This document shows, in pieces, positions 12,001 through 18,000 of a stretch of DNA of 45,337 nt (positions are counted from its first letter, which is position 1; each line of letters starts with the position of its first letter). This stretch comes from a virus (lineage: Duplodnaviria > Heunggongvirae > Uroviricota > Caudoviricetes), in IMG/VR virus record IMGVR_UViG_2721755660_000004; one strand, written 5' to 3'. A program made the position numbers.

Positions 12001-15000
12001 TGGAAAAAGGCGCAATTCAGCCGGTACATATTGATGATGTGCTTCCGGAAGTGGTTGACCGTGTTGAATGCCGGAATCAGGGGCTGGAGAAATCCAGGAC
12101 GTTGATGACCGGTATTGATGAACTGGACGCAAAAACAGGCGGCATGGAGCCCGGCGACCTGGTATTTATTGCGGCTCGTCCGTCAATGGGCAAAACCGAA
12201 CTGGCGCTGGATATCATCGACAAAGTGACTGAACAGGGGCGCGGTGTTCTTCTGTTCACAATGGAAATGGCGAACATTCAGATCGGTGAACGCATGGTGT
12301 CTGCTGCCGGAGGAATGCCTGTATCGCGCCTGAAATCTGTCTCTCACTTTGGTGACGAAGACTGGGCGCGTTTCATTAAGGGTGTGGAGCTGATGACCGG
12401 ACGCAATATCTGGATGGTGGACCAGGCGAACCTGACCATTGACGAGATATGCGTAACAACGAAACACCATTTGATTAAACATCCGGAAACGGCACTGGTG
12501 GTGGTTGATTATCTCGGGCTGATAAAAACCCGAACCACGGGGCGTCATGACCTTGCCGTGGGTGAAATCTCAAAGGGGCTTAAAGGCCTGGCAAAATCCG
12601 GCGGATTACCGGTGGTTGCGCTGAGCCAGCTTTCCCGTGGTGTGGAGTCCAGGCCCAATAAACGCCCTATGAACTCAGACCTGAAAAACTCCGGAGAAAT
12701 AGAGGCGGATGCAGACATCATTCTGATGCTTTACAGGGATGAAGTGTACAACCCGGATACGCAGGCCAGAGGCATTGCAGAAATCAATATCACGAAACAA
12801 CGTAACGGTTCTCTGGGGACGATTTACCGACGTTTTTATAACGGACATTTTCTGCCTGTAGACCAGGAAAGCGCGCAGGTTCTTTCCACATCAATGCAGC
12901 CGTCCAGACCGCGCAGATACAGTAACAAACGAACTGACAGCAGTAAGATGGAGCGTTTCTTTTGAACAACCAGACAATGACTTTTACCCCTGAACAACTG
13001 TAAGCGCATCATTTAAACCGTCTTTCGCCTCCCTTTCCTGTTTCCGATACTAATGTCCATTTTCGCAGTAAAAGGACATTTAAGATGAATGCACGAAAGG
13101 CGGTATTGGCAGATAATCCGGAATTGATCCTGCGTGTGCTACAGCTGAGATTTGACGAGTCACTGTCGTACCCGCGCATTTCTGCGCAGACTGGTGTCAG
13201 CAAAACCGCCATTTTTTCTCTGGTGAGGCGATTTCACCAGGTATTCACTGACTGGCCCCTTTCCGGTGAATATTCCTGCGGGCAACTGGCCCGGGCTCTT
13301 TTCCCGGGGCGATATCCTTCAACCCCGACCGTGACTCAGCCTGTGAAAGCAGAGAAACCCCGCCGGAACCGATTTTCACCGGAGTTTAAATGGAGACTTG
13401 TTCAGCGGACTCTTTTACCCGGTGCCTGTGTCGCACAAATAGCTCGTGAGAACGGAATCAACGATAACCTGCTCTTTAACTGGCGGCATCTCTGGCGTAA
13501 CGGCGGCCTGCAGCCGCCCGGCGAACATGAAACATCGCTACTTCCCGTGACGTTAACTCCGGAGCCGGATAATAAAATCCCGGCACCAGTGCAGATACCT
13601 GAACAGATAAATACACTGCCAGACAGTCTGTGCTGCGAGCTGGTTCTGCCGGCCGGAACTCTCAGGCTGAAAGGTGAACTGACACCGGCGTTATTACAGA
13701 CACTTATCCGCGAAATGAAAGGGAGCAGCCACTGATGATATCTCTCCCTGCCGGTTCACGTATCTGGCTGGTTGCCGGTATCACCGACATGCGAAATGGT
13801 TTTAACGGCCTGGCATCAAAAGTTCAGAACGTCCTGAAGGATGACCCGTTCTCCGGGCATCTGTTCATCTTCCGCGGACGCCGGGGTGACCAGATAAAAG
13901 TGTTGTGGGCTGACAGCGACGGACTGTGCCTCTTCACCAAACGCCTGGAGCGGGGCCGCTTCGTCTGGCCGGTCACCCGCGATGGAAAGGTTCACCTTAC
14001 TCCGGCTCAGTTGTCCATGCTTCTTGAGGGCATCAACTGGAAGCACCCGAAACGAACGGAACGCGCTGGAATCCGCATATAACCCGATGTAAAGTGAGGA
14101 TATGGACACCTCACTTGCTCATGAGAATGCCCGCCTGCGGGCACTGTTGCAGACACAACAGGACACCATCCGCCAGATGGCTGAATACAACCGCCTGCTC
14201 TCACAGCGGGTGGCGGCTTATGCTTCCGAAATCAACCGGCTGAAGGCGCTGGTTGCGAAACTGCAGCGTATGCAGTTCGGTAAAAGCTCAGAAAAACTTC
14301 GTGCAAAAACCGAACGGCAGATACAGGAAGCACAGGAGCGAATCAGCGCACTTCAGGAAGAAATGGCAGAAACGCTGGGTGAGCAATATGACCCGGCACT
14401 GCCATCCCCCCTGCGCCAGTCTTCTGCCCGTAAACCGTTACCGACCTCACTTCCCCGTGAAACCCGGGTTATCCGGCCGGAAGAGGAATGCTGCCCGGCC
14501 TGTGGTGGCGAACTCAGTTCTCTGGGATGTGATGTGTCAGAGCAACTGGAGCTTATCAGCAGCGCCTTTAAGGTTATCGAAGCACAACGTCCGAAACTGG
14601 CCTGTTGCCGGTGCGACCATATCGTGCAGGCACCAGTACCTTCAAAACCCATTGCACGCAGTTATGCCGGAGCGGGGCTTCTGGCCCATGTTGTCACCGG
14701 GAAATATGCAGACCATCTGCCGTTATACCGCCAGTCAGAAATATACCGTCGCCAGGGCGTGGAGCTGAGCCGCGCCACGCTGGGGCGCTGGACAGGTGCC
14801 GTTGCTGAACTGCTGGAGCCGCTGTATGACGTCCTGCGCCAGTATGTGCTGATGCCCGGTAAAGTCCATGCCGATGATATCCCCGTCCCGGTCCAGGAGC
14901 CGGGCAGTGGTAAAACAAGGACTGCCCGGCTGTGGGTCTACGTCCGTGATGACCGTAACGCCGGTTCACAGATGCCTCCGGCGGTCTGGTTCGCGTACAG

Positions 15001-18000
15001 CCCGGACCGGAAAGGCGTCCATCCACAGAATCATCTGGCCGGTTACAGCGGTGTGCTTCAGGCCGATGCTTACGGTGGTTACCGGGTGTTATACGAATCC
15101 GGCAGAATAACGGAAGCCGCGTGTATGGCTCATGCCCGGAGAAAAATCCACGATGTGCATGCAAGAGTGCCCACCGACATCACCACGGAAGCCCTGCAGC
15201 GTATCGGTGAACTGTATGCCATAGAGGCAGAAGTCCGGGGATGTACAGCAGAACAGCGTCTGGCGGCAAGAAAAGCCAGAGCTGCGCCACTGATGCAGTC
15301 ACTGTATGACTGGATACAGACTCAGATGAAAACACTGTCGCGTCACTCGGATACGGCAAAAGCGTTCGCATACCTGCTGAAACAGTGGGATGGCCTGAAC
15401 GTGTACTGCAGTAATGGCCAGGTGGAAATCGACAACAACATCGCAGAGAACGCCTTACGGGGAGTGGCCGTAGGCCGGAAAAACTGGCTCTTCGCGGGTT
15501 CCGACAGCGGTGGCGAACATGCGGCGGTGTTGTACTCGCTGATCGGCACATGCCGTCTGAACAATGTGGAACCAGAAAAATGGCTGCGTTACGTCATTGA
15601 GCATATCCAGGACTGGCCGGCAAACCGGGTACGCGATCTGTTGCCCTGGAAAGTTGATCTGACCTCTCAGTAAATATCAATACGGTTCTGGCGAGCCGCT
15701 TACGAACAACTACGTAAACAGGCACAGGAAATGTTGCGACAGGCGGAACAACTGGAAAAAAACAGGTGTAACAAAAGATGCCATTCGTAAGGATATGGTG
15801 CCAGCGCTCAGGGAACTGATGCAGGCGAAACACCGCGCACAAAAAGCAGTGGATGAGCTGGTGGATTGTGTGGCAGAGCTGGAAACCAAAGTTGGAAAGT
15901 TTGAAAAACTGGTGCAGGAGGTGCTGCGCTGATGCGCCATGAGTTTATTTTACCTTATCCGCCGACGGTAAATACTTACTGGCGACGTCGTGGCAACACA
16001 TATTTTGTATCAAAAGTCGATGAGCGTTATCGCCGTGATGTGGCGCTAATTGTTCGCCAGCAGCGGTTGAAATTAAACCTGTCCGGAAGGCTGGCGATAA
16101 AGATTATTGCAGAGCCACCGGATAAGCGCCGTCGTGACCTGGACAATATCCTGAAAGCACCACTGGATGCACTGACACATGCGGGATTGCTTATCGACGA
16201 CGAGCAGTTTGATGAAATCAATATTGTGCGCGGTCAGCTCGTTCCTGGTGGGCGGCTGGGCGTGAAGATTTACAAAATTGAAAGTGAGTGAGCGTAAATA
16301 TGATATACCCGGAAATTACAGGCAAAAGCGGTGAGCATTTACGCCTGAAAACTCTGGAAAGTGTCTGGCTCCAGGGGAAACTGCGTATGTGGGGGCGTTG
16401 GTCGTATATAGGTGGTGGCAAAACAGGAAATATGTTCAATCAGTTGCTGGCATCCAAAAAACTGACAAAAACCGCGATCAATGAAGCCATGCGCAAAATC
16501 AGGGAATCAGGGATTGATAAACCTGAACTGGAAGCATTCTTGCGTGAGATGATCGAAGGAAAGCAAAAAAGCTGGTTAACTCACTGCACTGATGCAGAGG
16601 CACTAAAAATTGATAGTGTTATAGGTGAAGTTCTGGCGGATCATCCAGGACTACTAAATGTCCTGAGTCAGCGTTATGTGGGGCGAGGGATGAGTAAGAG
16701 AAGGATGGCCGAGTTATTAAACGAACAGTACCCAGAGTGGGCGTTGATTACATGCCGACGTCGTGTTGATCAGTGGTTGCGTGTTGCTGAGTTCATTTTG
16801 TACTCACCTATGAGAGAAGCGTTCGATTATACTTAAAAAATCATTGCAAAATGAGCCACAAACTGCTTCAATTCCGGTACGCTCCGCATAGCTGTATCGC
16901 GAGGCGAATCAAGCGCATGAACTTTGATACAACCCGCCATTGAGCGGGTTTTTTATGTCCGAAAAACGGCAGAGAACATAAAACGTGCTGGTGGTTGCGA
17001 ATACTGGTCTTTCGGCTTGTATTTTTGTAAATCGATATATACTTATCTTGTGACCAGTAATGTCAGGGCAATTGATATGAATGAAGCCTGTTCTGTTGTT
17101 TTTGTTCATTCCCCGTTTGTTGTGCTCTTTGAAGGAAAAGAGCTCTCTCTTGAAAGTGGTAGTGCACTTCTTGTCAGGGGGGGAGCTGGATCGTTATTGC
17201 CCTTTTCGGAATGTTTTCGGCGAATAAGTCTCAGTGAATCGACAATTAGCCGTTACCTGTTGTGTGGAGACGAAAAACAGGATGTAGTTTTAGTCCGGCA
17301 AATACCACGATATCTTTGCGTGAGTTTTCCCAAGGCAGAATTGATGGGCATCCTGATTGATTATCTTTGTGAGGAAAAGATTCATACGGACAATTTAGCG
17401 GAAATGCTTTCCTTTTCGTGTCTGGCGTTTTTCTCATCAGAGAAAATGTTTTCGTCGTTTCTGACCGCGTGTATTAGCAATATTAGTGACAGGCTTAGTG
17501 CATTGTTTCGCACGGACATTGCAGCAAACTGGACTCTGAGAGATGTGTCTTCGCGGTTATGTATCAGTGAAAGTTTGTTAAAAAAAAGACTGAAAGAAGA
17601 AGGCACCTGTTTCAGTGAGTTGTTGCTTACAGAGAGAATGAGAATGGCAGCAATGCTGTTGAATCAATCTCGTTGCGCCATCAACAGAATCGCTGCCCAG
17701 TGCGGCTATAATTTTACATCTTATTTTATCAGCGTATTCAGGAGTTATTTTGGTGTTACACCGGCAGGTTACAGGATGGCTGCATTCAATGAGATGAGTT
17801 TAAGTGTTACTCAAGAATAATTGAATTTTGCACTCATTGAAAACAGGCTCGCTGCGGCGGGCCTTTTTCATATCCGCGCCACGCCCGGCGCATATCAAAA
17901 ACCACAGAGCCTTTCAGGGGTGAGCTTACGGGATGGTCAGTGTGACTTTCTCTGTGGGCTGGTCACCCCAGGGCGCAGGCTCACCCACTAAAAGGAAAAG

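What the first reader, a model, noticed from the sequence alone, without database searches (positions are those of the whole stretch)
13000..15703. IS66-family element with a perfect 8-bp target duplication inserted in the nin-like region
A three-ORF IS (tnpA, tnpB, tnpC) is bounded by imperfect inverted repeats beginning GTAAGCG and flanked by identical GAACAACT copies (12992..12999 and 15704..15711). The perfect duplication argues for a relatively recent transposition. It interrupts a small ORF after codon 7 and separates the replication genes from rusA/Q, so it may impair early-to-late read-through and prophage inducibility.
Basis: seen in the sequence. Interest (0 to 1): 0.5.

Follow-up and report, generated by a model that had tools for sequence, protein, structure and literature searches.

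The report
Ordinary IS66-family insertion in a prophage
This is an intact, recently inserted copy of a well-known jumping gene (an IS679-like member of the IS66 family) in a lambda-like prophage of a Shiga-toxin E. coli; it is ordinary, already annotated in public genomes, and broke only a small gene that was already broken.

Summary
Window 13000-15703 is a 2704-bp IS66-family element. It carries tnpA, tnpB and tnpC on the + strand. Its inverted repeats start GTAAGCG and match at 17 of 25 positions. It is flanked by GAACAACT at 12992-12999 and 15704-15711.

The ends are real. Identical copies lie at more than ten other loci, each with a different 8-bp duplication. One genome carries 12,360 bp identical to the window with a single GAACAACT and no IS.

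The insertion is recent. The prophage of E. coli GB089 (O168:H8) matches the window at all 42,625 non-IS bases. The same insertion also occurs in isolates from Japan and Korea, so it is an inherited allele.

The small ORF it interrupts already had a frameshift (A7 run, 15756-15762) in every IS-free carrier of this allele. The genes downstream are rusA and a Q-like antiterminator. No strong same-strand terminator lies inside the IS, so a block of late gene expression is possible but untested.

One side finding: the identical IS has hit this prophage independently at four other sites, all within 138 bp (17900-18037). That suggests a local hot spot.

Novelty: already known. Interest is low.

The parts
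12992..12999 (.). left copy of the 8-bp target-site duplication, GAACAACT
   Evidence: a single copy in the IS-free alleles
13000..15703 (+). complete IS66-family insertion sequence (IS679/ISCro1-like), 2704 bp
   Evidence: end-to-end matches to copies elsewhere; 0 differences from the copies in GB089, N96 and MFDS1022581
13000..13024 (+). left terminal inverted repeat, starts GTAAGCG
   Evidence: 17 of 25 positions match the right repeat
13085..13735 (+). tnpA, 216 aa, helix-turn-helix accessory protein
   Evidence: Pfam HTH_Tnp_1 1.7e-16; NCBIfam IS66_access_TnpA 282 bits against a cut-off of 150
13735..14082 (+). tnpB, 115 aa, IS66 Orf2-like accessory protein. Its start overlaps the tnpA stop (TGATG). 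It is unrelated to the RNA-guided TnpB of IS200/IS605.
   Evidence: Pfam TnpB_IS66 4.7e-40; NCBIfam IS66_TnpB
14102..15673 (+). tnpC, 523 aa, DDE transposase with leucine-zipper, zinc-finger, DDE and C-terminal domains
   Evidence: Pfam DDE_Tnp_IS66 3.3e-104 covering profile positions 1-283 of 284, plus LZ_Tnp_IS66, zf-IS66 and DDE_Tnp_IS66_C; NCBIfam transpos_IS66 476 bits
15679..15703 (-). right terminal inverted repeat; its reverse complement starts GTAAGCG
15704..15711 (.). right copy of the 8-bp target-site duplication, GAACAACT
12962..12999 (+). 5' stub of the interrupted small ORF. The TTG start overlaps the helicase stop. With the IS present it reads 12 native codons, then Leu, then a TAA supplied by the IS end.
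15712..15932 (+). 3' remainder of the small ORF, carrying an older frameshift (A7 at 15756-15762, against A6 in the intact 85-aa allele)
   Evidence: PGAP marks it 'frameshifted' in the IS-free GB089 allele
15932..16291 (+). rusA, the first intact gene downstream of the IS
   Evidence: PHROG 34 5.5e-53
16300..16836 (+). Q-like late antiterminator (Pfam DUF1133), whose expression could be affected by polarity
   Evidence: PHROG 753 'anti-termination protein Q-like' 1.3e-75; homologues in phage records are annotated as antitermination protein Q
17900..18037 (.). context only. This stretch is empty in the window, but the identical IS occupies four different sites here in other strains: TSDs at 17900-17907, 17911-17918, 18004-18011 and 18030-18037.

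Best explanation
A complete, transposition-competent IS66-family element (IS679/ISCro1-like, 2704 bp) inserted by simple transposition into the nin-like region of a lambdoid prophage. The prophage lies at the yecD/yecE-yecN locus of a LEE-negative STEC lineage (O168:H8 in the typed carriers). Shown: the element's ends, its three intact genes, the 8-bp staggered-cut signature, the pre-insertion sequence, and its recency. Inferred from what is established for the family: the DDE transposase TnpC, helped by TnpA and TnpB, binds the GTAAGCG-type ends and joins them to target strands cut 8 bp apart, and gap repair then makes the GAACAACT duplication. The likely donor is one of the identical copies in the same genome (the ~224-kb plasmid, or chromosomal loci such as yhaV-agaR). 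The prophage ancestor had no IS. The insertion split a small ORF that was already frameshifted. It now sits, in the same direction as early transcription, between the DnaB-like helicase gene and rusA plus the Q-like antiterminator. Any effect on Q expression and on induction is unproven.
For: Family assignment: Pfam and NCBIfam hits for all three proteins exceed the curated cut-offs. Ends: end-to-end matches to copies elsewhere. Identical copies at other loci each carry their own 8-bp duplication: CGTTATAG, GTTAAGAC, TTTTTACC, CCGGGTCG, AGTGAATG, AAATAACC, AACCACAG, CTTTCAGG and others. Empty site: GB089 has 1200/1200 identity with one GAACAACT, and L033 has 12,360/12,360 identity with no IS. 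L033's genome has the same IS elsewhere. Recency: there are 0 differences over 42,625 bp between the window and the GB089 prophage once the IS is removed, and 0 differences among the IS copies. The same junctions appear in three independent assemblies: the window, OkiPb01715 and CP169397.1. Published family definitions agree: 20-30 bp repeats starting GTAAGCG and 8-bp direct repeats (PMC11946415), and three ORFs TnpA/TnpB/DDE transposase (PMC12888890).
Against: Nothing contradicts the identification. Three things remain untested: the exact ISfinder name, the donor copy, and any effect on the prophage. The chemistry of IS66-family transposition (cut-and-paste or copy-paste) is described in the literature as insufficiently characterised (PMC12898284), so that step is inferred.
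Confidence: 0.95

Rival explanations
1. The IS did not arrive from elsewhere. It hopped about 2.2 kb within the prophage, from the site occupied in GB089 (17907) to 12999, and the old site was restored precisely.
For: The window and GB089 prophages are identical at all 42,625 non-IS bases. Each holds exactly one copy of the identical IS, in the same orientation, at different sites, and each shows a perfect empty site where the other is occupied.
Against: IS-free versions of the same prophage segment are common and up to 100% identical (L033, L034, L037 plus 8 similar places, L038, L018). L033's genome already holds the IS elsewhere. The other strains' copies lie at yet other sites and in both orientations. 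Independent insertions into an IS-free ancestor therefore explain everything without needing a precise excision.
Confidence: 0.03
2. The insertion is polar on rusA and Q and locks the prophage, so it cannot be induced.
For: A 2.7-kb insert lies between the early replication genes and the Q-like gene. All other insertions of this IS in this prophage also fall in the segment between Q and the lysis genes, as selection for uncoupling late genes would predict. The insert adds 6% to a 42.6-kb genome that has an HK97-type packaging module.
Against: The IS genes read the same way as the early operon and are translated ORFs. The scan finds only one weak 5-bp-stem candidate on the + strand inside the IS (13279-13293), against strong terminators at 16931-16950 and 17845-17864 outside it. 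Q-modified transcription would be expected to read through the downstream insertions. There is no expression or induction data.
Confidence: 0.3
3. This strain did not experience the transposition. It inherited or imported the allele that already carried the IS, by clonal descent, recombination or lysogeny by a phage that carried the IS.
For: Identical junctions occur in isolates from Japan (OkiPb01715) and Korea (CP169397.1) and in the window's source. In MFDS1022581, the copy in this prophage (at 17918) is the only chromosomal match to the IS. That would fit IS arrival together with the phage.
Against: This changes only when and where the event happened, not what it is. OkiPb01715 and GB089 are both O168:H8 (PMC12613899, PMC5009963), so plain clonal descent is enough.
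Confidence: 0.5
4. The flanking repeat is a chance match, or the element is an assembly artefact.
For: GAACAACT occurs five times in the window.
Against: The ends were defined independently, the chance of a match is 1.5e-5, three assemblies agree, and the empty-site alleles hold a single copy.
Confidence: 0.01

Closest known systems
IS679 (IS66 family; E. coli B171 plasmid pB171; Han et al. 2001, J Bacteriol 183:4296, cited in PMC12898284 but not readable here)
   Same: It has three ORFs, tnpA, tnpB and tnpC, of 216, 115 and 523 aa, GTAAGCG-type ends and an 8-bp duplication. TnpC is 514/523 identical to a protein that PGAP names 'IS66-like element IS679 family transposase'. That copy is about 96.6% identical in DNA. 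From memory, IS679 is also 2704 bp.
   Different: PGAP labels this exact TnpC only 'IS66 family transposase'. No IS679 reference sequence was available, since neither NC_002142 nor AB024946 is in the collections. Whether it is an isoform or deserves a new name is undecided.
ISCro1 (IS66 family, Citrobacter rodentium)
   Same: Proteins named 'ISCro1 family transposase' fall in the same 90%-identity cluster as this TnpC.
IS66 and classic IS66-family members (Agrobacterium Ti plasmid; ISPsk01, ISPpu14 and others)
   Same: The family architecture and the end motif are the same (PMC11946415, PMC12888890).
   Different: They come from a different host range and are much more distant in sequence. This element carries no passenger gene, unlike the tIS66 forms.
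IS629 and other IS insertions in EHEC lambdoid prophages (from my own knowledge of the O157 literature; not checked here)
   Same: An IS sits in the regulatory or late region of a lambdoid prophage of a STEC strain and is polymorphic between close relatives.
   Different: IS629 belongs to the IS3 family and makes 3-4 bp duplications.

Membership tests
IS66 family | DDE transposase of the IS66 type (TnpC) | tested here: met
   PF03050 at 3.3e-104, covering profile positions 1-283 of 284, plus LZ, zinc-finger and C-terminal domains. NF033517 scores 476 bits against a cut-off of 180.
IS66 family | accessory genes tnpA (HTH) and tnpB (IS66 Orf2) upstream of tnpC, with tnpA and tnpB overlapping | tested here: met
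   NF038385 scores 282 bits and NF033819 scores 129 bits. The tnpA stop and tnpB start overlap at 13733-13737 (TGATG), and tnpC starts 19 nt after the tnpB stop.
IS66 family | terminal inverted repeats of 20-30 bp starting GTAAGCG (PMC11946415) | tested here: met
   Both ends start GTAAGCG, and 17 of the first 25 positions match.
IS66 family | 8-bp target-site duplication | tested here: met
   GAACAACT appears twice here and once in the IS-free alleles. More than ten other copies each carry their own 8-bp duplication.
IS66 family | mobility as a unit with these exact ends | tested here: met
   Identical 2704-bp copies lie at different loci on chromosomes and plasmids.
IS66 family | all three gene products are needed for transposition | not testable with these tools
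   This needs genetics. It was reported for IS679 by Han et al. 2001, recalled from memory because the paper is not held.
IS679 (a named ISfinder element) | nucleotide identity to the ISfinder reference high enough to count as an isoform (about 95% or more) | not testable with these tools
   No reference sequence was available. The proxies are 98% TnpC identity to a PGAP 'IS679 family' protein and 96.6% DNA identity to that copy.
nin-like region of a lambdoid prophage | lies between the replication genes and the Q antiterminator and contains a rusA-type resolvase | tested here: met
   The order is DnaC-like, DnaB-like helicase, small ORF, rusA, Q-like gene. The window runs from the integrase to the tail fibres.

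The most novel reading that the evidence does not exclude
This IS679-like element shows a strong local insertion preference in this prophage. Besides site A, four further independent insertions of the identical IS, in both orientations, fall within 138 bp (17900-18037). That stretch lies between the terminator of an AraC-like gene and the first codons of a TerB-like gene, on and next to a long predicted hairpin. It could reflect targeting guided by DNA structure or by transcription in a family whose target choice and chemistry are poorly known. It could also reflect selection for insertions that separate Q from the lysis and late genes.
Probability: 0.35. Interest if true: 0.4.

Novelty: already known. 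Interest (0 to 1): 0.14.

Why it matters
It matters little for biology at large. This is a textbook IS66-family insertion that RefSeq already annotates as tnpA/tnpB/tnpC in the matching genome. It has modest practical value. It is a clean natural before-and-after pair (12.4 kb identical, with and without the IS) for an IS family whose mechanism is under-studied. It also marks a sub-lineage of STEC O168:H8. If the clustering of independent insertions downstream of Q is real targeting or selection, it would give a handle on IS66 target choice or on prophage taming.

Tried and rejected
(1) Local hop with precise excision. I first thought the GB089 site was ancestral, because three of four complete genomes had the IS near it. 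That was wrong. The three sites differ in position or orientation, and IS-free alleles are common and up to 100% identical.

(2) Target consensus. The 14 or so duplications collected show no convincing motif. The plasmid copy and site A share the 8-mer TGAACAAC in their targets. With this sample size I treat that as unexplained or chance.

(3) Named reference. The Han et al. 2001 paper and the pB171 record are not held, so the ISfinder name could not be tested.

(4) Promoter scan. No sigma-70-like site was found in 12500-18200, against 5.0 expected. There is therefore no evidence for an outward promoter driving rusA and Q.

(5) RNA searches. The Rfam and tRNA scans found nothing inside or next to the IS.

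(6) Composition. GC content is 0.51-0.59 in the IS against 0.41-0.53 around it. This is unremarkable.
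Full report
**What is in the sequence.** The stretch reads ...ACCCCT-GAACAACT | GTAAGCGCATCATTT... (13000) and ...GGCGAGCCGCTTAC (15703) | GAACAACT-ACGTAAAC. The two 8-mers lie at 12992-12999 and 15704-15711, and the element between them is 2704 bp. Three ORFs run on the + strand: 13085-13735 (216 aa), 13735-14082 (115 aa) and 14102-15673 (523 aa). The first ORF's stop overlaps the second ORF's start (TGATG). The ends are imperfect inverted repeats. Both begin GTAAGCG, and 17 of the first 25 positions agree.

**Family.** The three proteins match HTH_Tnp_1, TnpB_IS66 and DDE_Tnp_IS66. TnpC also carries the IS66 leucine-zipper, zinc-finger and C-terminal domains, with E-values down to 3e-104. 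They also match the NCBIfam equivalogs IS66_access_TnpA, IS66_TnpB and transpos_IS66, all far above the curated cut-offs. Published descriptions of the family give 20-30 bp terminal repeats starting GTAAGCG and 8-bp direct repeats (PMC11946415). They also give the TnpA/TnpB/DDE-transposase layout (PMC12888890). Every family feature that can be read from sequence is met. This TnpB is unrelated to the RNA-guided TnpB of IS200/IS605.

**Are the ends and the duplication real?** Yes.
- The 2704 bp match from first to last base at 100% on the 224-kb plasmid of E. coli GB089 and at about 98% on many other plasmids; 1292 plasmid records cover at least 80% of the element.
- They also match in 1470 of 5426 complete E. 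coli genomes at 80% coverage or more.
- Copies identical or nearly identical to this one sit at many other loci, each with its own 8-bp duplication. Examples are CGTTATAG, GTTAAGAC, TTTTTACC, CCGGGTCG, AGTGAATG, AAATAACC and CCTGAAAA.
- With ends fixed this way, a chance match of the flanking 8-mers has probability about 1.5e-5.
- A synthetic 'empty site' (flanks joined, one GAACAACT) matches the GB089 chromosome at 1200/1200.
- Locus L033 (GCA_047262165.1) is 12,360/12,360 identical to the window with the IS and one 8-mer removed.

**Host element.** The window is a whole lambdoid prophage between yecD and yecE/yecN. It runs integrase, excisionase, LexA-type repressor, Rha/anti-repressor genes, replication genes (DnaC-like, DnaB-like), the IS, a small ORF, rusA, a DUF1133 protein, an AraC-like gene, TerB-like, DUF3927, iraM, holin/lysozyme/Rz, an HK97-type head module and lambda-type tail genes. 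The DUF1133 protein is PHROG 753 'anti-termination protein Q-like' (1.3e-75). Phage records annotate its homologues as antitermination protein Q. 'nin-like region upstream of rusA/Q' is therefore a fair description.

The window equals the chromosome of STEC O168:H8 strain OkiPb01715 (cattle, Okinawa; PMC12613899) except for three SNPs at 43930-43955. RefSeq already annotates the element there as IS66-family tnpA/tnpB/tnpC.

**Recency.** GB089 (O168:H8, ST718, stx2a, ground beef; PMC5009963) carries the same prophage. After removing the IS and one duplication copy from each, all 42,625 bases are identical. In GB089 the identical IS lies 2.2 kb further on, at 17907, with duplication AACCACAG, and site A is empty. 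The IS copies in GB089, N96 and MFDS1022581 differ from the window's at 0 of 2704 positions. So the insertion is young.

It is not private to one isolate. CP169397.1 (Korea) has the same junctions and a further IS3-family insertion in the AraC-like gene.

**A hypothesis I dropped.** Three of the four complete genomes with this prophage had the IS near 17907. I therefore considered that position ancestral, with the window's state a hop plus precise excision. Closer reading refuted this.
- MFDS1022581 has the IS 11 bp further on (duplication CTTTCAGG).
- N96 has it inverted at 18030-18037.
- GCA_047262155.1 has it inverted at 18004-18011, across the TerB-like start codon.
- IS-free prophages are the commonest state among carriers of the same rusA allele (L033, L034, L037 with 8 similar places, L038).
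- One IS-free genome (L033) has the same IS elsewhere (L030 and L031).

Independent insertions into an IS-free ancestor explain everything.

**What the insertion broke.** In N96 and MFDS1022581 the gene between the helicase and rusA is an intact 85-aa ORF (PHROG 2565). It starts at a TTG that overlaps the helicase stop. The IS end supplies an immediate TAA.

The window's allele differs from the intact one at 12 positions between 12970 and 16020. One of these is an extra A in the run at 15756-15762 (A7 against A6), which shifts the frame. Every IS-free carrier of this allele has the same A7 (GB089, L012, L014, L015, L018). PGAP marks the gene 'frameshifted' in GB089. The ORF was therefore already broken when the IS arrived.

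**Effect on the prophage.** This part is inference only. The IS reads in the same direction as the early rightward genes. The terminator scan finds one weak 5-bp-stem candidate on the + strand inside it (13279-13293). It finds strong terminators only outside, at 16931-16950 after the Q-like gene and at 17845-17864 after the AraC-like gene. No sigma-70-like promoter was found in 12500-18200, so rusA and Q probably still depend on read-through from upstream. Polarity is possible and so is full read-through. The sequence cannot decide between them.

**Name.** TnpC is 514/523 identical to a protein PGAP calls 'IS66-like element IS679 family transposase'. That protein comes from an IS in the nin region of another prophage (FDAARGOS_1059). 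The same 90% cluster also contains 'ISCro1 family' names. No IS679 reference sequence or paper was reachable. I therefore call it IS679/ISCro1-like.

**Side finding.** Counting site A, the identical IS has hit this prophage at five distinct sites. Four lie within 138 bp (17900-18037), in both orientations, just after a terminator and on or beside a long predicted hairpin (minimum free energy -52.3 kcal/mol, z = -2.6). A short-read contig also ends at 17869. In MFDS1022581 this is the only chromosomal match to the IS. Even within the roughly 12 kb that my sampling covered, such clustering is very unlikely by chance. I cannot tell whether it is target preference or selection.

**Verdict.** The observation and its identification are correct. 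The element is an ordinary, already-annotated kind of insertion, and its functional consequence is untested.

Noticed in passing
window 17869-18037: This looks like an insertion hot spot. The identical IS occupies four different sites here in other strains: 17907 (+) in GB089, 17918 (+) in MFDS1022581, 18004-18011 (-) in GCA_047262155.1, and 18030-18037 (-) in N96. A contig of GCA_014362925.1 also ends at 17869. All of these sites are empty in the window.
   Followed up: partly
window 17866-18010: The leader upstream of the TerB-like gene folds into a long hairpin (-52.3 kcal/mol, z = -2.6, 1 of 200 shuffles as good). No Rfam family matches it. Two of the IS sites lie in its 5' arm.
   Followed up: partly
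window 15756-15762: An A7 run frameshifts the small ORF between the helicase gene and rusA, where the intact 85-aa allele has A6. The frameshifted allele is widespread in IS-free prophages, and the 12 allele differences are confined to 12970-16020.
   Followed up: yes
window 8672-8860: Rfam finds isrK (62.8 bits) and C4 antisense RNA (80.1 bits) at the start of a Rha/anti-repressor-type gene. From memory this resembles the P1/P7 c4-ant immunity module. STnc100 is at 18634-18809, next to iraM.
   Followed up: no
L010 201-3004 (GB089 plasmid NZ_CP012499) and L028: The plasmid copy is preceded by a tandem extra copy of the first 100 bp of the IS (the left end). The whole 2804-bp unit is flanked by the duplication TGAACAAC. 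That 8-mer is also present in the site-A target (cTGAACAACt).
   Followed up: partly
phage records, e.g. FJ188381.1 58671-58775: A 105-bp remnant of the right end of this IS (window 15599-15703, 97% identical) is present in most of the 46 matching phage records, which are mainly Stx1- and Stx2-converting phages. Only two phage records hold a near-complete copy (GER2 and PPwrbA_EC3734).
   Followed up: no
L025 (CP169397.1 2299243-2310814): A full IS copy between the Rz and Nu1 genes of another prophage has non-matching flanks (ATTATTGT and GAATGAAC). This is the signature of a rearrangement between IS copies.
   Followed up: no
L024/L032 (CP169397.1): This strain has the same site-A insertion plus an IS3-family element inside the AraC-like gene. 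Its IS is 2703 bp and tnpB is called as 53 aa, probably a homopolymer sequencing error.
   Followed up: partly
window 43930-43955: The only three differences between the window and OkiPb01715 cluster in 26 bp of the tail-fibre gene. GB089 is identical to the window there. The window's source is therefore a third genome, possibly CFSAN004180 (CP015228), whose chromosome length equals the longest contig that carries this exact TnpC.
   Followed up: partly
L008 1509-4212 (FDAARGOS_1059): A 96.6%-identical IS679-family copy lies in the nin region of a different lambdoid prophage, in the same orientation, upstream of hokD-DUF968-rusA-Q. A related prophage in strain UTAK-5 carries an ISEc23-family (IS66-like) element in the matching region. 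IS66-family elements recur in this part of lambdoid prophages.
   Followed up: no
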